This document shows, piece by piece, positions 3,287 through 30,692 of a stretch of 32,000 bases of DNA (position 1 is its first letter; every line of letters begins with the position of its first letter). The position numbers were made by a program, and so were the translations under genes. This DNA is from Phycisphaera mikurensis NBRC 102666. GTDB taxonomy: Bacteria > Planctomycetota > Phycisphaerae > Phycisphaerales > Phycisphaeraceae. Location of the stretch: contig NC_017080.1 in NCBI RefSeq assembly GCF_000284115.1, forward strand, positions 3,120,001 to 3,152,000, written 5' to 3'. The notes under the pieces are model-generated. The model ran no database searches. It was not told the DNA's origin and saw only the letters and a list, made by a program, of their open reading frames with translations.

Positions 3287-3617
3287 GGAGAGAGCCGAAG
3301 CGACGTGTGGTCGACGCGCTGGAGGAGGGCTGCACGGCTCGCGAAGCCCGACGCGCTGCGCTCGCGGCCGCACCGCGGAGAGACGAAGAGCCGAAGACGG
3401 CCGCGCATCGCCGCAGGCAACAACGCCCCTGCTCCTCCCCGCCTCCCCGCCTCTCCGCCTCTTCGTCTCTTCGTCTCTCCGCCTCCCCGTCTCTTCGTCT
3501 CTTCGTCTCTTCGTCTCTTCGTCTCTTTGGCTCTTCGTCTCTTCGTCTCTTCGTCTCTTCGTCTCTTCGTCTCTCCGTCTCTCCGTCTCTCCGTCTCTCC
3601 ACCTCTCCGCCTCCCCG
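3287..3617. repeat. Composite octamer-repeat element, copy A (variant unit GTCTCTTC)
   Basis: Short purine arms are GGAGAGAGCCGAAGCGACG (3287-3305) and GGAGAGACGAAGAGCCGAAGACGG (3377-3400). They are followed by 22 head-to-tail 8-nt pyrimidine units from 3441 to 3616 (GCCTCCCC, GCCTCTTC, GTCTCTTC x many, GTCTCTCC x4, ...). It lies in the larE-mcsA spacer. Confidence 0.9.
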
Positions 3618-3694
3618 CCGCCAGCCCACCGACTCCCCGCCCTACCGTCCAAGGCCGCATCGCTCTCCCGGTTCGATCCGCAAGGCGCTCTCTC

Positions 3695-8668: not shown

Positions 8669-10219
8669 TCAAGCGAGCACGGCGGCCAGCTGGCCCTCGA
8701 CACCCGGTGCCGGCAGCGAACTCTCCCCCATCAGCCGCGTGTCGATCGCCCGCGCGGCGCCGCGACCCTCGGCGATGGCCCAGACGATCAGGCTCGCGCC
8801 GCGCCGGACGTCGCCGGCGGCGTAGACCTTCTCCACGCCCGTGCGGTAGCCGTCCTCCTCGGTGGCGATGCTGCCGTCGGCCGCGGTCTGCAGGCCGAAT
8901 CCATCCAGCAGCGCCGGCGTGTCGTGACCGGTGAAGCCGATCGAGAGCAGCACGAGGTCGGCCCGGAGCCGCTCGATCTCGCCGGTCGGGGTCGACTTCC
9001 AGCGGCCGTCGACTCTCTCCCAACGCAGCTTCTCGACCTCGACGAAGCCGACCCGCGAGGGGTCGTCGTCGCGGGCGACGAAGCCCTTGGGCAGCAAGCC
9101 GTAGCGCCGCGGATCCTGCTCGAACTGCGCCGAGCCTTCGGCGTGGCCGTAGTCGACGTAGAAGGTGCCGGTGGGTCCGGGCCAGGGGTGGTCCTCGTCG
9201 CGCTCGTCGGGCTCGCGTTCGCGACGCGTGATGTTCGTCACGCTCGCGGCGCCGTGCCGGATGGCGGTGCCGATGCAGTCGGTGCCGGTGTCGCCGCCGC
9301 CGATGACCACGACGTGCTTGCCTTCGGCGGAGAGGTAGTCGCCGTCGGCGAGGCCCGAGTCCAGCAGCGACTTGGTGTTGCGCCAGAGGAACGTCATCGC
9401 CTTCTCGACGCCCCCGAGTGAGCGACCGGGCAGGCCCGCGAGGTCGCGGCCCTTGAGCGCCCCGCAGGCGAGCAGCACGGCGTCGTAGTCGTCGATGAGG
9501 CGCTGCGGGTCGACGTTGCGGATCTCCGGGCCCGCCCCCGTGCCGAAGTCGCTCTGCGAGCCGCCGACGTTCGCGTGGGTGATGAAGGTGATGCCCGCCT
9601 GCCGCAGGAGGTCGACCCGCCGCTCGACGATCTTCTTCTCGAGCTTCATGTTGGGCACGCCGTACATGAGCAGCCCGCCGATGCGGTCGTCCCGCTCGTA
9701 CACCGTGACGTGGTGGCCGGCCTTGTTGAGCTGGTCGGCGGCGGCGAGGCCCGCCGGGCCCGAGCCGACGATGGCCACCGTCTTGCCGGTCCGTGCTTCG
9801 GGGGTGTTCGGGGTGACCCACCCCTCATCGAAGGCCCGGTCGATGATGGAGCACTCGATGCTCTTGATCGTCACCGGGCTCGCGTTGATGCCCAGGACGC
9901 AGGCCGACTCGCACGGTGCCGGGCAGATCCGCCCGGTGAACTCCGGGAAGTTGTTGGTCATCGTCAGACGCAGGTACGCCTCGTGCCACCGCTCGCGGTA
10001 GACCAGGTCGTTCCACTCGGGGATCTGGTTGTCGATCGGGCAGCCCGACTCGCTCTGGCAGAAGGGCACGCCGCAGTCCATGCAGCGGGCCCCCTGGTCC
10101 ATGAGCGTCTGGTCGTCGTGCCGCGCGTAGATCTCGTGGAAATCGCCGATGCGCAGCAGCGGATCCCTCGCGGGCATCGGCTGGCGCTCGTACTGCATGA
10201 ATCCGTTGGGTTGGCCCAT
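8669..10219 (-). CDS. gltD: Glutamate synthase (NADPH) small subunit
   Basis: ATG at 10219 gives MGQPNGFMQYERQPMPARDP. Fe-S Cys clusters are CMDCGVPFC and CPAPCESAC, and the dinucleotide fold is VAIVGSGPAGLAAA. Also present are GGLLMYGVPNMKL and VVVIGGGDTGTDC. 516 aa. Confidence 0.93.
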   Translation of the reverse strand: MGQPNGFMQYERQPMPARDPLLRIGDFHEIYARHDDQTLMDQGARCMDCGVPFCQSESGCPIDNQIPEWNDLVYRERWHEAYLRLTMTNNFPEFTGRICPAPCESACVLGINASPVTIKSIECSIIDRAFDEGWVTPNTPEARTGKTVAIVGSGPAGLAAADQLNKAGHHVTVYERDDRIGGLLMYGVPNMKLEKKIVERRVDLLRQAGITFITHANVGGSQSDFGTGAGPEIRNVDPQRLIDDYDAVLLACGALKGRDLAGLPGRSLGGVEKAMTFLWRNTKSLLDSGLADGDYLSAEGKHVVVIGGGDTGTDCIGTAIRHGAASVTNITRREREPDERDEDHPWPGPTGTFYVDYGHAEGSAQFEQDPRRYGLLPKGFVARDDDPSRVGFVEVEKLRWERVDGRWKSTPTGEIERLRADLVLLSIGFTGHDTPALLDGFGLQTAADGSIATEEDGYRTGVEKVYAAGDVRRGASLIVWAIAEGRGAARAIDTRLMGESSLPAPGVEGQLAAVLA

Positions 10220-10224
10220 AGAGC

Positions 10225-10245
10225 GGGGGGGGGTTGGGGGGGGGG
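10225..10245. repeat. Homopolymer pair G9-TT-G10 (C10-AA-C9 on the gltD sense strand)
   Basis: Read directly: g x9 (10225-10233), tt, g x10 (10236-10245). It ends 5 nt upstream of the gltD ATG (minus strand: CCCCCCCCCCAACCCCCCCCCGCTCTATG). Confidence 0.95.
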
Positions 10246-10530
10246 CAGGAGCAAGCGAAGAAGCGAGGAAGCGAAGAAGCGGAGAAGTCAGGCAACGCAG
10301 CGGCAAAGCCGCTCGCTCCGAGAGGACCACGATCGCAAGCCTCCACCCGCAGTCTTCTCCAGATCGTCACTTCGCCGCTTCTTCACTTCTTCACTTCTTC
10401 GCTTCTTCGCTTCTTCACTTCTTCACTTCTTCACTTCTTCACTTCTTCGCTTCTTCGCTTCTTCGCTTCTCCGCTTCTTCGCTTCTTCGCTTCTCCGCTT
10501 CTCCGCTTCTCCGCTTCTCCGCTTCTCCGC
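10246..10530. repeat. Composite octamer-repeat element, copy B (gltB-gltD spacer)
   Basis: The left purine arm is GCAAGC + GAAGAAGC GAGGAAGC GAAGAAGC GGAGAAGT (10251-10288). The spacer has hairpin AGCGGC-aaa-GCCGCT (10299-10313). Then come 19 exact-period 8-nt units at 10377-10528 (7x GCTTCTTC, 6x ACTTCTTC, 6x GCTTCTCC, arranged in blocks), ending 2 nt from the gltB stop codon. Confidence 0.92.
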
Positions 10531-13500
10531 TCATCCCAGCCCCAACTCGAGCGCGCCCGGCTGATTCTCCACCGCCGTCGCCCGCTTCTGCCGCTCGAGC
10601 ACCCGGCGGTAGTCGATGGGCATCACCTTCTTGAAGAGCTTCACGCTCTTCTCCCAGTTCTGCAGCACCTTGTCGGCGACGGCGGAGCCGGTGAGGCGGG
10701 CGTGCTCGACGATGAGGTGCTGGAGCTCCTCGGCGTCGCCGAGGGCGTCGGGGCCGTCGATGCGTTCGAGCTCCACCATGCCGAGGTTGCAGTGCTGGAG
10801 CAGCGTGTCGTCGCGGTCGAGCACGTAGGCGATGCCGCCGGACATGCCGGCCGCGAAGTTGCGGCCGACCCCGCCGAGGATGACGGCCCGGCCGCCGGTC
10901 ATGTACTCGCAGCCGTGGTCCCCGACGCCCTCGACCACCGCCAAAGCCCCGGAGTTGCGGACGCAGAAGCGCTCGGCCGCCACGCCGCGGAAGTAGGCCT
11001 CGCCGGAGGTCGCCCCGTAGAGCGCCACGTTGCCGATGAGGATGTTGTCCTCGGCCTTGAAGCCCGAGGCGGCCGGCGGCTTGACCACGATGCGGCCGCC
11101 GGAGAGCCCCTTGCCGACGTAGTCGTTCGCGTCGCCGGTGACGGTGATCGACACGCCGCGGGTGAGCCACGCGCCCAGGCTCTGGCCCGCGGAGCCGCGG
11201 AGCCGCACGTCGATGGTGTGCGGCGGCAGGCCGCCGGCGCCGTGGCGCTTGCTGACCTCCCAGGAGAGCATCGTGCCCACGGTCCGGTTGAGGTTGGTCA
11301 CCGGCAGCTCGATGCTCACCGGCGTCTGGTGCTCGAGCGCCGGCATCGCCTCGGCGATGAGCCGGTTGTCGATGTGGCCCTCGACGCCGTGGTCCTGGCC
11401 CTCGCACTTGAACGCCTTCGCGTCGGCACGCGGGCCCTTCGCCGGGAGCAGCAGCGCGGAGAGGTCCAGGCCGTGGGCCTTCCACGCGTCGACGGCCGCC
11501 CGGGTGCGGAGCAGCTCAACGCGGCCGACGAGCTCCTCGATCGTCCGCACGCCCATCTTGGCCATGTAGCCGCGGGCTTCCTCGGCGACGAGGAAGAGGT
11601 AGTTGAGCACGTGCTCGGGCGTGCCGTTGAACTTCGCCCGCAGGTCGGGGTCCTGCGTGCAGACCCCGACCGGGCAGGTGTTCAGGTGGCACTTGCGCAT
11701 CATGATGCAGCCCATCGTGATCATCGGGGCGGTCGAGAAGCCGAACTCCTCGGCCCCCAAGCACGCGGCGATGACCACGTCGCGGCCGGTCTTGAAGCCG
11801 CCGTCGGTTTCGAGCGAGACGCGGGAGCGGAGCCCGTTGAGCACCAGCGTCTGGTGCGCCTCGGCCAGCCCCAGCTCCCAGGGCAACCCGGCGTGCTTGA
11901 TGCTGGTGAGCGGGCTGGCCCCCGTGCCGCCGTCGGCGCCGGAGATGAGGATGTGGTCCGCCTTGGCCTTGGCCACGCCCGCGGCCACGGTGCCCACGCC
12001 CACCTCGGCGACGAGCTTGACGCTCACGTCGGCGACGGGGTTGCTGCGCTTGAGGTCGTGGATGAGCTGCGCGAGGTCCTCGATGGAGTAGATGTCGTGG
12101 TGCGGCGGCGGGCTGATGAGGCCCACGCCCGGCGTCGAGTGCCGGATGCCCGCGATGTACGGATCGACCTTGAAGCCGGGCAGCTGCCCGCCCTCGCCGG
12201 GCTTGGCGCCTTGAGCGATCTTGATTTGCAGGCGGTCGGCGTTGGCCAGGTAATGGCTGGTGACGCCGAAGCGGCCCGAGGCGATCTGCTTGATGGCGGA
12301 CCGCTTGCTCTTGACGCTGCCGTCGGGGTACTGGGCGAGCGAGAAGCGCTTCGGGTCCTCGCCGCCCTCGCCGGAGTTGGACAGCCCGCCCACGCGGTTC
12401 ATCGCCAGCGCGAGCGTCTCGTGGGCCTCCTTGGAGAGGGCGCCCAGGGACATGGCGCCGGTGCGGAAACGCTTCACGATCTCCTTGGCGGGCTCGACCT
12501 CGTCGATCGAGATCGCGACCGTGGGCAGGCCGTCCAGCTCGCGCTCCACCACGGCGTGCGGGTCGGGCCGGGCCTCGATCTCTTCGGGCGTCAGGCGGGC
12601 CTGCCCGGGCACGCCGGGCGCGGTGAGCGCTTCGGTGAAGGCCTCGCCGTCGCCGTCGAAGGGCCCGTCTTGCAGGTCGCCGTGGGTCTTCGGCTTGGGC
12701 TCGTCGGCGTAGCGCATCTCCAGCAGGCCGCGGAGCGAGCCCTGGTGCTTCGCGTCGTCGTTGCAGAAGCGGGCGTACTGGTCGTAGGCGACCCGGCTGT
12801 TCGAGCGGCTCGCGGCCTGCAGGCTCGCGACCACCTGCGGGCTCCAGCCGTGCCGCTCGCCGCCGGGCCGCCAGGCGTACTCGCCGGGGTTGGGCAGCTG
12901 GGCGAGGCGCACGAGCTCGCGGCGCGGGAAGCCGATCGCGTGGCGCCGCAGCGACTCCGCGGCGATGACGTCCAACCCGGCTCCGGAGATCCGCGAGGCG
13001 GTGCCGACGAAGGCCCGGTCGATCGTCTCCTGCCCGAGGCCGACGGCCTCGAAGATCTGGGCCCCGTGGTAGCTGGCGAGCGTGGAGATGCCCATCTTGG
13101 ACATCACCTTCTGCAAGCCGAGGCCGATGGATTTCGCGAGGAGCCGCTCGATCTTCTCGTCGGTCAGCGTCTCGTCGAGCACGCCCTCCTCGCGGAGGCC
13201 GCGGATCGCCTGCACCGCGAGGTACGGGTTCACCGCGTCGACGCCGTACCCGAAGAGCGTGGCGAAGTGATGCACCTCGCGGGCCTCGCCCGATTCGAGC
13301 ACGAGTCCGATCCGCGTGCGGCTGTGCGTGCGGACGAGGTGGTGGTGGACGGCGCCGACGGCGAGCAGCGAGGGGATGGCGACCCGATCCGCCGAGACGC
13401 CGCGGTCGGAGAGCACGAGCACGCGCGAGCCCGCGGCGATCGCCGCGTCGGCCTCGTCGCAGAGCCGCTGGAGCGCCGCCCGCAGCGGGTCGCCCGCGGC

Positions 13501-28564: not shown

Positions 28565-28722
28565 CAGCGGCTGTGCCGCTCCTGGCTGCGCCAGGCAAGC
28601 GCAGAAGAGCGAAAGCGAAGAAGTGAGGAAGTCGGCACCGAGCAAGAGCGGCTCTGCCGCCGCCGCAGGCGGCTCTTGCTGACTCTCTCTCTTCTCCGCT
28701 TCTTCTCTTCTTCGCTTGCTCC
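28565..28722. repeat. Composite octamer-repeat element, copy C (prs-rplY spacer)
   Basis: The conserved left end is CAGCGGCTgtGCCGCTcctGGCTGCGCCAGGCAAGCG (28565-28601). The purine arm is CAGAAGAGCGAAAGCGAAGAAGTGAGGAAGTC. The central hairpin is AGCAAGAGC (28641-28649)/GCTCTTGCT (28672-28680). The pyrimidine arm CTCTCTCTCTTCTCCGCTTCTTCTCTTCTTCGCTTGCTCC ends at 28722. Confidence 0.9.
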
Positions 28723-29436: not shown

Positions 29437-29636
29437 CAGCGGCTTCGCCGCTTATGGCTGCGCCAGGCAAGCGGGGAAGCGAGCAAGCGGGGAAGCGGAG
29501 AAGTTAGGAAGCGAAGAAGTCAGAAACGGACAAGAGCGGCCCTGGTCCGACTCTCACTTTCCCGCTTCTCCACTTCTTCGCTTCCCCGCTTCTTCGCTTC
29601 CCCGCTTCTTCGCTTCCCCGCTTCTTCGCTTGCTTC
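29437..29636. repeat. Composite octamer-repeat element, copy D (rplY-pth spacer)
   Basis: The left end CAGCGGCTtcGCCGCTtatGGCTGCGCCAGGCAAGCG (29437-29473) is 33/37 identical to copy C. Six purine octamers follow (GGGGAAGC GAGCAAGC GGGGAAGC GGAGAAGT TAGGAAGC GAAGAAGT, 29473-29520). After a spacer come about 10 pyrimidine octamers at 29555-29634 (GCTTCTCC, ACTTCTTC, alternating GCTTCCCC/GCTTCTTC), ending in CGCTTGCTTC. Confidence 0.9.
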
Positions 29637-30281: not shown

Positions 30282-30682
30282 GCGTGGCGTCGCCACGCAG
30301 TGACCGCGGCCAGACTGGCATCGAGAGCTGAGCGGCGACGCCGCTCTGTCTGCTTGTGCGCGAAGGAGCTGCATCGCGGCTCGGACAGCGTGGCGTCGCC
30401 ACGCAGCGACCGCGGCCAGGCTGGCTGCGAGAGCTGAGCGGCGACGCCGCTCTGTCTGCTTGTGCGCGAAGGAGCTGCATCGCGACTCGGACAGCGTGGC
30501 GTCGCCACGCAGCTAGCGCGGCCAACATGGCTTCGAGAGCTGAGCGGCGACGCCGCTCTGTCTGCCTTGTGCGCGAAGAAGCTGCATCGCGGCTCGGACA
30601 GCGTGGCGTCGCCACGCAGCTAGCGCGGCCAGGCTGGCGGAGAGAGCTGAGCGGCGACGCCGCTCTGTCTGCTTGTGCGCGA
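30282..30682. repeat. Tandem array of about 106-nt units (106, 106, 107 nt + about 82-nt partial), each carrying two perfect 17-nt palindromes
   Basis: Unit starts are at 30282, 30388, 30494 and 30601. Each unit contains GCGTGGCG-T-CGCCACGC and GAGCGGCG-A-CGCCGCTC (30282-30298 and 30330-30346 in the first unit). The array fills the spacer between the pth stop (30269) and the pckA stop (30693). Confidence 0.93.
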
Positions 30683-30692
30683 CGGGGCTGGG

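What the first reader, a model, noticed from the sequence alone, without database searches (positions are those of the whole stretch)
10246..10530. Largest element copy sits inside the gltB-gltD operon and turns the junction into (GGAGAAGC)n RNA
The 311-nt gltB-gltD spacer is almost entirely element sequence. On the gltBD sense strand the gltB stop codon is followed 2 nt later by 19 exact-period octamers: GGAGAAGC x5, then mixed GAAGAAGC/GGAGAAGC, then GAAGAAGT/GAAGAAGC blocks.

After these come a spacer hairpin, 4 complementary CTTCTTCG-type units, and then the C-tracts and the gltD ATG.

The three unit variants occur in contiguous blocks, which is the signature expected of local slippage or expansion. 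The GGAG-containing repeats are reiterated Shine-Dalgarno-like motifs, while gltD itself has no SD. So the element could sequester or deliver ribosomes, or set the gltB:gltD expression ratio through a long-range purine/pyrimidine stem. This is inference.
Basis: partly seen in the sequence, partly recalled or inferred. Interest (0 to 1): 0.65.

Follow-up and report, generated by a model that had tools for sequence, protein, structure and literature searches.

The report
Octamer-repeat hairpin element between gltB and gltD
The spacer between the two glutamate-synthase genes is filled by one copy of a scattered, self-complementary repeat element whose arms are runs of 8-base units; this kind of element is known from cyanobacteria, and nothing here shows that its GGAG motifs handle ribosomes.

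Summary
Two bases after the gltB stop codon, 19 exact-period octamers run on the gltBD sense strand. An 88-nt core follows, then a short complementary arm of about 5 units, a C10AAC9 tract and the gltD ATG. The spacer is 311 nt.

It is one of at least five copies of a dispersed element family in 46.6 kb of this genome, very probably Phycisphaera mikurensis. The copies form two subfamilies, each with its own core and its own unit, and the arms are complementary only within a subfamily. All five lie between co-directional genes.

The unit variants sit in blocks (p=0.005), which fits slippage. The closest relative (GltD 91% identical) has no such array, so the expansion is recent.

The ribosome (Shine-Dalgarno, SD) reading is not supported:
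- Only 7 of 30 genes have any SD-like 4-mer upstream.
- Three of the five copies would be transcribed as pyrimidine arrays.
- Sense-strand folds are not favoured over antisense folds.

The long stem is real. Repeat-armed hairpins with quite different units fill the gltB-gltD spacer in four other Phycisphaerae lineages (enrichment p=0.006-0.055).

The closest precedent is the cyanobacterial STRR hairpin between hupS and hupL. I file it as a new member of a known kind, of moderate interest.

The parts
10531..10533 (-). gltB stop codon (TGA); the element starts 2 nt downstream
10377..10528 (-). long arm of copy A: 19 exact-period octamers (GGAGAAGC/GAAGAAGC/GAAGAAGT on the gltBD sense strand; CGCTTCTT-type on +)
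10289..10376 (-). core of copy A, with an internal small hairpin (GCGGC-TTT-GCCGC), the arm/core junction motif GAAGTCAG (read on the + strand) and two degenerate units at the inner end of the long arm
10248..10288 (-). short arm of copy A: 4 units plus the degenerate terminal unit CTTGCTCC. It can pair with the long arm in many registers.
10225..10245 (-). C10-AA-C9 leader just upstream of gltD (G9TTG10 on +); no Shine-Dalgarno motif and no TANNNT box
10217..10219 (-). gltD start codon (gltD = 8669-10219)
3379..3619 (+). copy D, subfamily 2 (unit CGTCTCTT): short purine arm, core, 23-unit pyrimidine array; lies between a larE-like gene and mcsA
28598..28722 (+). copy C, subfamily 1: prs-ctc spacer
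29467..29636 (+). copy B, subfamily 1: ctc-pth spacer. The copy-specific GGGG/CCCC unit variant is present in both arms.

Best explanation
**Shown.** The feature is copy A of a dispersed, non-coding, self-complementary repeat family in a Phycisphaerae genome. Each copy has a short purine arm, a core that is conserved within its subfamily, and a long pyrimidine arm. Both arms are tandem arrays of 8-nt units. Arms match only within a copy's own subfamily, and some copy-specific unit variants appear in both arms of the same copy.

**Inferred.**
- The arrays are long simple-sequence repeats of the STRR type that grow and shrink by replication slippage, which would explain the blocks of identical variants.
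- The inverted arrangement is kept at the DNA level rather than by selection on the mRNA.
- The family spreads or is homogenised by an unknown route, possibly one that recognises hairpins in single-stranded DNA.

**At gltB-gltD (inferred).** The element has recently filled what was a short spacer. In the bicistronic mRNA it should fold into a long imperfect stem that starts at the gltB stop codon and ends in the pyrimidine-rich leader of gltD, looping out most of the purine array.

My best guess at its effect is passive tolerance, not a purpose-built regulator. This organism rarely uses Shine-Dalgarno sites, and gltD has no promoter-like box of its own. The stem keeps stop and start close together. 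Ribosomes finishing gltB would melt its base and free the C/U-rich leader, so coupled translation of gltD would survive a 311-nt insertion. Modest effects on mRNA stability or on the subunit ratio are possible but unproven.
For: **A family, not a one-off.**
- Four copies lie in the window and a fifth 0.5 kb beyond it.
- Shared junction and terminal motifs, and two core subfamilies.
- Arm 8-mers are complementary within a subfamily (0.13-0.80) and 0.00 across subfamilies.
- All five copies lie between co-directional genes (p about 0.04).

**Slippage.** Blocks of unit variants, p=0.005.

**Recent arrival at this junction.**
- No array in the relative with 91% GltD identity.
- 45-nt spacer with AGGAG in Mucisphaera calidilacus.

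**Stem geometry.** -130.8 kcal/mol; the outermost helix runs from the stop codon to 1 nt before the ATG in the minimum-energy fold. Many alternative registers exist.

**Translation context.**
- SD-like 4-mers in 7 of 30 genes; C-rich leaders.
- No promoter-like or terminator-like site in 10100-10700.

**DNA-level maintenance.** Sense strands fold better than antisense in only 4 of 13 hairpins.

**Same kind of element in relatives.**
- L131 has three copies of its own family, one of them in gltB-gltD.
- The L130, L132 and L126 spacers carry repeat-armed hairpins.

**Precedent.** Hairpin-forming STRR arrays lie between hupS and hupL in cyanobacteria (PMC2670836).
Against: - No transposase, target-site duplication or other sign of mobility was found. 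Copy number is known for only 46.6 kb.
- Repeat-armed hairpins at gltB-gltD in 5 of 9 lineages exceed the background of 9 of 53 other spacers (p=0.006-0.055). That could mean selection rather than tolerance.
- The coupling step is pure inference. The other copies sit 35-95 nt from the neighbouring stop and start codons, so tight bridging is not a family trait.
- The ensemble of folds is diffuse (minimum-energy structure frequency about 0).
- The unit count rests on one assembly.
Confidence: 0.6

Rival explanations
1. Selected intercistronic device. In Phycisphaerae that make little use of Shine-Dalgarno (SD) sites, a repeat-armed hairpin between gltB and gltD is kept by selection. It would couple translation, or set mRNA processing and stability, so that the two subunits are made in the right ratio. 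The arm sequence is free to drift as long as the arms stay complementary.
For: - Strongly structured spacers (z <= -4.5) occur in 5 of 9 gltB-gltD junctions against 9 of 53 other spacers.
- The units differ completely between lineages: GAAGAAGC, CAGTGGT, TGGTGGC, GACAGGAT and a 9-mer CTTGGCGNN.
- Stems start 0-14 nt after the stop codon in four of the five. In the fifth (L126) an extra small ORF lies between gltB and the hairpin. Stems end 1-19 nt before the start in all five.
- Arms co-vary between L130 and L132.
- The same idea has been proposed for STRR hairpins between hupS and hupL (PMC2670836).
Against: - The closest relative (91%) and three other lineages lack such a hairpin.
- Any element that fills a short spacer must abut the stop and the start, so the geometry is not independent evidence.
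- There is no sense-strand bias in folding energy or G-U pairs.
- The same families occupy unrelated spacers.
- L130 and L132 are probably one event, which weakens the statistics (p=0.055).
Confidence: 0.22
2. One reading: the reiterated GGAG units act as Shine-Dalgarno (SD)-like sites that sequester ribosomes or hand them to gltD.
For: On the sense strand the array has six GGAGAAGC units, and gltD has no SD of its own.
Against: - SD-like motifs precede only 7 of 30 genes.
- Thirteen of the 19 units are GAAGAAGC or GAAGAAGT, not GGAG.
- Three of five copies present the pyrimidine strand to the ribosome.
- In the minimum-energy fold the outer GGAG units are the ones paired with the short arm.
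- The array is absent from the closest relative.
- The 16S rRNA tail could not be examined.
Confidence: 0.05
3. DNA-level function. The arrays would be binding sites for a DNA-binding protein, or would form non-B DNA (cruciform, or a triplex on the mirror-symmetric purine tract), affecting replication, recombination or transcription.
For: - The fold is strand-symmetric.
- All five copies share one chromosomal orientation.
- Every hairpin has the purine arm 5' and the pyrimidine arm 3'. In the wider scan, 16 arrays have the purine arm upstream against 2 with single weak downstream matches.
Against: - No candidate protein is known.
- Five of five copies in one orientation is only p=0.06.
- Every eighth base interrupts the purine run, which disfavours a triplex (general knowledge, not tested here).
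- Unit sequences differ between subfamilies and lineages, which argues against one conserved binding protein.
Confidence: 0.1
4. Assembly artefact: the array, or its length, is a mis-assembly of a simple repeat.
For: The short-read assembly breaks inside this array and inside copy D. A 152-nt array is hard to span with short reads.
Against: - Both ends of the array join unique sequence in the 498-kb contig.
- The inner end and short arm are reproduced independently.
- The irregular pattern of unit variants gives unique long k-mers.
- Four similar elements are assembled elsewhere.
Confidence: 0.03

Closest known systems
Cyanobacterial STRR (short tandemly repeated repetitive) sequences, in particular the hairpin-forming arrays between hupS and hupL
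   Same: - Short units tandemly amplified, dispersed in intergenic regions.
- Inverted arrays able to form a hairpin between the two subunit genes of one enzyme.
- Function unknown; transcript stability or translational coupling have been proposed (PMC2670836).
   Different: - Units are 7 nt and the hosts are filamentous cyanobacteria.
- Here the units are 8-nt purine/pyrimidine, the arms are very unequal (5 against 19-23 units), cores are conserved within subfamilies, and the host is a planctomycete.
Long simple sequence repeats with 5-11 nt units (Mrazek et al. 2007, as summarised in PMC4679880) and the TAACTGA heptamer repeats of Beggiatoaceae, Cyanobacteria and Bacteroidetes
   Same: - Intergenic arrays of short units, growth attributed to slippage.
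- Often just upstream of start codons in genomes poor in Shine-Dalgarno sites.
- S1, Csp or CsrA-type binders have been proposed.
   Different: - TAACTGA sets are mostly direct repeats of 2-6 copies lying at the ribosome-binding position, with one indirect set reported.
- Here the arrays come as inverted pairs around a core.
REP/BIME and REPIN elements with their RAYT transposases
   Same: - Dispersed extragenic hairpins, often inside operons.
- They fold in mRNA, and orientation can be tied to single-strand DNA processing (PMC3333891, PMC3116915).
   Different: - REPs are 20-40 nt conserved imperfect palindromes, not simple-repeat arrays.
- No RAYT gene was seen in the window, and the rest of the genome could not be searched.
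MITEs (for example Correia elements, or the MITE carrying a minisatellite in Porphyromonas gingivalis, PMC4596501)
   Same: - Small non-coding elements with terminal inverted repeats (GGAGCAAGCG ... CGCTTGCTCC).
- Multiple copies, and presence/absence between relatives.
   Different: - No target-site duplication and no parent insertion sequence were found.
- The inverted repeats are themselves arrays of variable length.
Foldback (FB-type) transposons of Drosophila (own knowledge; compare Tetris, PMC4079207)
   Same: Long inverted arms built from tandem short repeats, with arm lengths that differ between copies and between the two arms of one copy.
   Different: These are eukaryotic, kilobase-scale elements with known transposase partners. 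The resemblance is in architecture only.
Rickettsia palindromic elements (own knowledge)
   Same: Hairpin repeats tolerated in frame inside protein genes, as seen for three repeat-armed hairpins inside gltB of relative L126.
   Different: This applies to the relative, not to the window. The source gltB insertions at the same sites show no hairpin.

Membership tests
Long simple sequence repeat / STRR-type intergenic arrays | Tandem array of a 5-11 nt unit, far longer than chance | tested here: met
   19.5 copies at 95% match; 41 matches against 0.17 expected
Long simple sequence repeat / STRR-type intergenic arrays | Same or related unit amplified at several dispersed intergenic sites in one genome | tested here: met
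   Five sites in 46.6 kb, all intergenic
Long simple sequence repeat / STRR-type intergenic arrays | Inverted arrays able to pair as a hairpin (as described for hupS-hupL) | tested here: met
   Folds; arm complementarity
STRR in the strict sense | Heptamer unit in a heterocystous or filamentous cyanobacterium | tested here: not met
   Unit is 8 nt; host is in Phycisphaerae
REP / REPIN | Conserved 20-40 nt imperfect palindrome as the repeated unit | tested here: not met
   Arms are octamer arrays of 22-184 nt. Only short junction and terminal motifs and the subfamily cores are conserved
REP / REPIN | Cognate RAYT (IS200/IS605-type Y1 transposase) in the genome | not testable with these tools
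   Only 46.6 kb of the genome could be read; the Pfam labels of called genes there show no transposase
MITE | Terminal inverted repeats | tested here: met
   GGAGCAAGCG / CGCTTGCTCC ends in copies A, B and C
MITE | Target-site duplication flanking each copy | tested here: inconclusive
   No shared direct repeat at the ends of A, B and C or of the three L131 copies, by inspection of the alignments
MITE | Empty site in a close relative | tested here: inconclusive
   The relative with 91% GltD identity has a 158-nt spacer with no array, but it has another hairpin and a short GCTTTCCT x2 tract, so it is not a clean empty site
Intrinsic terminator | GC-rich stem followed by a U-run | tested here: not met
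   No terminator-like site in 10100-10700; the stem is followed by C-tracts
Shine-Dalgarno-type ribosome-binding or standby site | The organism's genes generally use SD pairing | tested here: not met
   SD-like 4-mer at -20..-4 in 7 of 30 genes; the 16S rRNA tail was not available
Shine-Dalgarno-type ribosome-binding or standby site | Purine motif presented on the transcribed strand in all family copies | tested here: not met
   Copies B, C and D are upstream of + strand genes and carry pyrimidine arrays on +
Any curated RNA family (Rfam 15) | Match at gathering score | tested here: not met
   Only two tRNAs in the window
MIRU-type operon repeats | 40-100 bp units carrying small ORFs that overlap the flanking stop and start codons | tested here: not met
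   Unit is 8 nt. The T-variant units introduce TGA stops, so no reading frame runs through the array

The most novel reading that the evidence does not exclude
In Phycisphaerae that rarely use Shine-Dalgarno sites, repeat-armed hairpins would be a selected and repeatedly re-invented device. They would tie the stop codon of one cistron to the start codon of the next, so that two-subunit enzymes are translated in step: gltBD here, hupSL in cyanobacteria. The arms would evolve by concerted slippage, so the sequence changes completely between lineages while the structure stays. The purine-5'/pyrimidine-3' polarity would ensure a pyrimidine-rich ribosome-loading leader whichever strand the genes lie on.
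Probability: 0.13. Interest if true: 0.75.

Novelty: new member of a known kind. Interest (0 to 1): 0.42.

Why it matters
**As it stands.** It adds a planctomycete octamer family to the poorly understood class of intergenic short-tandem-repeat hairpins (STRR and long simple sequence repeats). It also warns annotators that these arrays break short-read assemblies and spawn false ORFs.

**What deserves follow-up.** Hairpins with lineage-specific repeat arms occupy the gltB-gltD junction in several Phycisphaerae, and one relative carries three of them in frame inside gltB.

**If selection keeps them there.** They would offer a simple, testable answer to how internal cistrons are translated in bacteria that lack Shine-Dalgarno sites. 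They would also give a function to a repeat class that has had none for 35 years.

Tried and rejected
- **Genome-collection scan.** The degenerate five-unit pyrimidine octamer pattern was too permissive. It still showed that such arrays are widespread and that a purine arm, when present, lies upstream.
- **Metagenome scan.** The junction motif GAAGCGRAGAAGTCRG gave only chance matches; none had an array nearby.
- **Viral scans.** Exact three-unit probes found a few unrelated arrays on contigs of 38-55% GC. There is no link to this family.
- **Rfam.** No match.
- **Promoter and terminator scan.** Nothing in the spacer.
- **Sense versus antisense folding and G-U counts.** This was meant to detect selection on RNA structure; it showed no bias.
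- **Homology of the spacer with the closest relative.** No convincing alignment beyond the last few bases before the ATG.
- **Source gltB insertions.** The insertions at the sites where relative L126 carries hairpins do not fold (z +2.0 and -0.4).
- **Complete-genome copy of the locus.** The last context look-up was meant to fetch it so that array lengths could be compared. It failed because the GTG start was translated as V.
- **Considered and dropped.**
  - CRISPR-like array: no spacers.
  - Coding repeat: period 8, with stops.
  - CsrA sponge: GGA motifs occur on one strand only and in 6 of 19 units.

Full report
**1. The observation**

The window is 68-78% G+C. It is part of contig JACHEL010000002.1 of assembly GCA_014207395.1.

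Identical proteins also sit on a 3,803,225-bp contig. From memory, that is the chromosome length of Phycisphaera mikurensis NBRC 102666. The nearest named relatives of GltD are Mucisphaera and Phycisphaeraceae. The lineage is Planctomycetota, class Phycisphaerae.

gltD is 8669-10219 on the minus strand, and gltB ends at 10531-10533. The spacer is 311 nt.

Tandem Repeats Finder reports 19.5 copies of an 8-nt unit at 10376-10531 with 95% matches. On the gltBD sense strand, the TGA stop is followed by GC and then by 19 in-register octamers: GGAGAAGC x5, GAAGAAGC x2, GGAGAAGC, GAAGAAGC x2, GAAGAAGT x4, GAAGAAGC x2, GAAGAAGT x2, GAAGAAGC.

A two-unit probe with up to 3 mismatches matches 41 times in the window, against 0.17 expected by chance. 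Identical variants are clustered: 11 of 18 neighbouring pairs are identical, permutation p=0.005.

Downstream on the sense strand lie four further parts:
- an 88-nt core with a small hairpin of its own;
- a complementary arm of four good units plus a degenerate terminal one (10248-10288);
- a C10AAC9 tract;
- the gltD ATG.

A short-read assembly of the same strain reproduces everything up to 2.5 units into the array and then breaks. It breaks in the same way inside the array upstream of mcsA. A 553-aa GltD annotation from the 3.8-Mb contig translates the C-tracts and the short arm identically.

The exact unit count rests on one assembly.

**2. What it is: one copy of a dispersed family**

The same architecture occurs at three other places in the window and at one place just beyond it. 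In each case, read on the + strand, a short purine arm is followed by a core and then a long pyrimidine arm.

| Copy | Position | Flanking genes |
|---|---|---|
| D | window 3379-3619 | larE-like to mcsA; 23 units of CGTCTCTT type |
| A | window 10248-10531 | gltB to gltD |
| C | window 28598-28722 | prs to ctc |
| B | window 29467-29636 | ctc to pth |
| E | L127 12768-12865, about 0.5 kb past the window end | a his gene to pckA |

That is five copies in 46.6 kb. All have the long arm on the same side, and all lie between co-directional genes. The preference for co-directional spacers has p of about 0.04. Five of five in one orientation has p=0.06.

Shared sequence features:
- Copies A, B, C and E share the arm/core junction GAAGTCRG.
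- A, B and C share the termini GGMGCAAGCG / CGCTTGCTYC.
- B and C share the core motif CAAGAGCGGCYCTG.
- D and E share GCATCGCC..GGC.

Arm 8-mers are complementary within the subfamilies (A, B, C) and (D, E), with fractions of 0.13-0.80. Across subfamilies the fraction is 0.00. Some variants are copy-specific yet appear in both arms of the same copy: GGGG/CCCC units in B, and GAGCC in D.

So this is a repeat family with conserved cores and variable-length simple-repeat arms that stay complementary.

Rfam has no match. I found no description of such elements in this organism.

**3. Comparison of the gltB-gltD junction in relatives**

| Relative (GltD identity) | Spacer | What is there |
|---|---|---|
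| L123/L124 (91%) | 158 nt | G+C-rich hairpin, a short GCTTTCCT x2 tract, no octamer array; fold z -0.5 to -1.4 |
| Mucisphaera calidilacus (65%) | 45 nt | AGGAG 8 nt before the ATG, no structure |
| L125 (75%) | 124 nt | no repeat-armed hairpin |
| L254 (71%) | 154 nt | small hairpins only, no repeat arms |
| L130 (74%) | 88 nt | (CAGTGGT/CAGTGAC)x4 ... (TGACCAC-type)x4 |
| L132 (75%) | 144 nt | (TGGTGGC)x3 ... (ACTAGCC)x4 |
| L131 (71%) | 153 nt | (GACAGGAT)x2 ... (ATCCTGTC)x2 |
| L126 (72%) | 789 nt, including an extra small ORF | 9-mer arms just before the ATG |

The 3' arms of L130 and L132 share CACTAGCCACT, so these two are probably one event.

In L131 the same element occurs at two other spacers, with TTTTGACAGGATGACAGGAT ... 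ATCCTGTCATCCTGTCAAAA ends. Each lineage therefore has its own family.

With mononucleotide shuffles, 5 of 9 gltB-gltD spacers have z <= -4.5, against 9 of 53 other spacers in the same loci. The Fisher p-value is 0.006 to 0.055, depending on which junctions are counted as independent.

This is suggestive, not decisive. The junction may be a tolerated landing place, or the hairpin may be kept there by selection.

In L126, three further repeat-armed hairpins lie in frame inside an intact 1641-aa gltB, at variable linker positions. The source gltB has insertions at two of those positions, but they do not fold.

**4.

*SD-like GGAG units.*
- Only 7 of 30 called genes in the region have any of GGAG, GAGG, AGGA or AAGG at -20..-4.
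- The last 25 nt before start codons are 43% C.
- Many first genes instead have a TANNNT box 7-12 nt before the start, which looks leaderless.
- gltD has neither signal, and no promoter-like or terminator-like site lies in the spacer. This fits co-transcription with gltB, by inference.
- Lack of an SD is therefore the rule here.
- Three of the five copies would be transcribed as pyrimidine arrays.
- Only 6 of the 19 units carry GGAG, and the minimum-energy fold pairs precisely those outer units with the short arm.
- I rate the ribosome-trap idea unlikely.

*Long-range stem.*
- The spacer folds to -130.8 kcal/mol (z -3.1 with dinucleotide shuffles; z -5.5 with mononucleotide shuffles).
- The outermost helix runs from the stop codon to 1 nt before the ATG.
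- The short arm can pair in many registers, so the ensemble of folds is diffuse.

*Selection on the RNA.*
- If the RNA structure were under selection, sense strands should fold better than antisense strands through G-U pairs.
- Across 13 hairpins, only 4 favour the sense strand.
- The complementarity therefore looks as if it is maintained at the DNA level.

**5. Most likely mechanism**

*Shown:* a dispersed, self-complementary family with simple-repeat arms; recent arrival or expansion at this junction; and the predicted stem.

*Inferred:*
- The arms grow by replication slippage.
- The element is tolerated in spacers between co-transcribed genes.
- At gltB-gltD the stem holds stop and start together. 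Ribosomes terminating on gltB would open its base and expose the C/U-rich leader, so gltD would still be translated in step despite 311 nt of insert.

One feature fits this reading. In every hairpin of the source, and in most others, the purine arm is 5' and the pyrimidine arm 3'. In the wider scan, 16 arrays have a purine arm upstream, against 2 with single weak downstream matches. This polarity reads the same on both strands. It therefore always places pyrimidines, the native leader composition, before the downstream start codon, whichever strand carries the genes.

The rival of a selected coupling or stability device keeps about 0.2 probability.

**6. Relation to known systems**

- **Cyanobacterial STRR arrays (closest precedent).** These are heptamer arrays dispersed in intergenic regions. 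They form a hairpin between hupS and hupL in several species. Their function is unknown, with transcript stability or translational coupling proposed (PMC2670836).
- **Long simple sequence repeats and TAACTGA heptamers.** Long simple sequence repeats have 5-11 nt units. TAACTGA heptamers lie upstream of start codons in SD-poor Beggiatoaceae, Cyanobacteria and Bacteroidetes; they are attributed to slippage, with S1/Csp/CsrA-type binders proposed (PMC4679880).
- **REP/REPIN and MITEs.** They share the dispersed-hairpin character, but their defining features were either not met or could not be tested. These features are a conserved palindrome, a RAYT gene, target-site duplications and a parent insertion sequence.
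- **Drosophila foldback elements.** Architecturally the unequal tandem-repeat arms recall these (own knowledge).

The present case differs in unit length (8 nt), purine/pyrimidine composition, strong arm asymmetry, subfamily cores and host phylum. I file it as a new member of a known kind.

**7. Limits**

- Only 46.6 kb of the source genome and 4-22 kb per relative could be read.
- The complete-genome copy of the locus could not be fetched.
- No expression data exist.
- All functional statements are inference.

Noticed in passing
window 30282-30690: A 106-bp unit is repeated 3.8 times at 92% identity in the convergent spacer between pth and pckA. Each unit contains internal palindromes (GCGTGGCGTCGCCACGC, GAGCGGCGACGCCGCTC). 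This is a second, unrelated repeat type.
   Followed up: no
L126 5691-5793, 6240-6315, 7120-7250 (a 3.9-Mb Phycisphaerae genome): Three repeat-armed hairpins (units GCGAGT, ATGACGAA, AGGGGCAA) lie in frame inside an intact 1641-aa gltB, at variable linker sites. This recalls Rickettsia palindromic elements.
   Followed up: partly
L127 and L128 (source genome, 46.6 kb around the window): About a third of the genes, mostly first genes after a spacer, have a TANNNT box 7-12 nt before the start codon and no Shine-Dalgarno site. Leaders are 43% C. This looks like widespread leaderless or SD-independent initiation.
   Followed up: partly
window 10225-10245: The gltD leader is C10-AA-C9 (G9TTG10 on +). 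Two long homopolymer runs are themselves slippage-prone, yet they are identical in two assemblies.
   Followed up: partly
window 10393-10448 (minus strand): Runs of GAAGAAGT units read as overlapping mini-ORFs GTG-AAG-AAG-TGA, with each stop overlapping the next GTG (GTGA). This is probably a by-product of the unit sequence.
   Followed up: no
L131 9857-9984, 14107-14266, 18661-18810: This relative has its own dispersed hairpin family, with ends TTTTGACAGGATGACAGGAT / ATCCTGTCATCCTGTCAAAA. One copy lies in the gltB-gltD spacer.
   Followed up: partly
L019, L041, L068 (Gemmatimonadales genomes assembled from metagenomes): (CGCTTCCC)n arrays are each preceded by a conserved hairpin, GGATYCCSGCTTGCGCSGGRATGAC, with no complementary purine arm. 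This is another lineage-specific pairing of an octamer array with a REP-like hairpin.
   Followed up: no
L007-L122 (genome-collection hits): Pyrimidine octamer arrays are widespread. (CATCTCCC)n in filamentous cyanobacteria dominates the hits, with up to 47 units in Trichormus sp. NMC-1.
   Followed up: no
L002 1-20 and L129 1-50: A 6.8-kb short-read contig of the same strain begins and ends exactly inside the octamer arrays of copies D and A. These elements therefore fragment short-read assemblies.
   Followed up: yes
window 8669-10330 (minus strand): One public annotation calls a 553-aa GltD that starts at a GTG inside the element core and translates the short arm and C-tracts (P0123). Another aa (P0122). 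The element confuses start-codon calling.
   Followed up: partly
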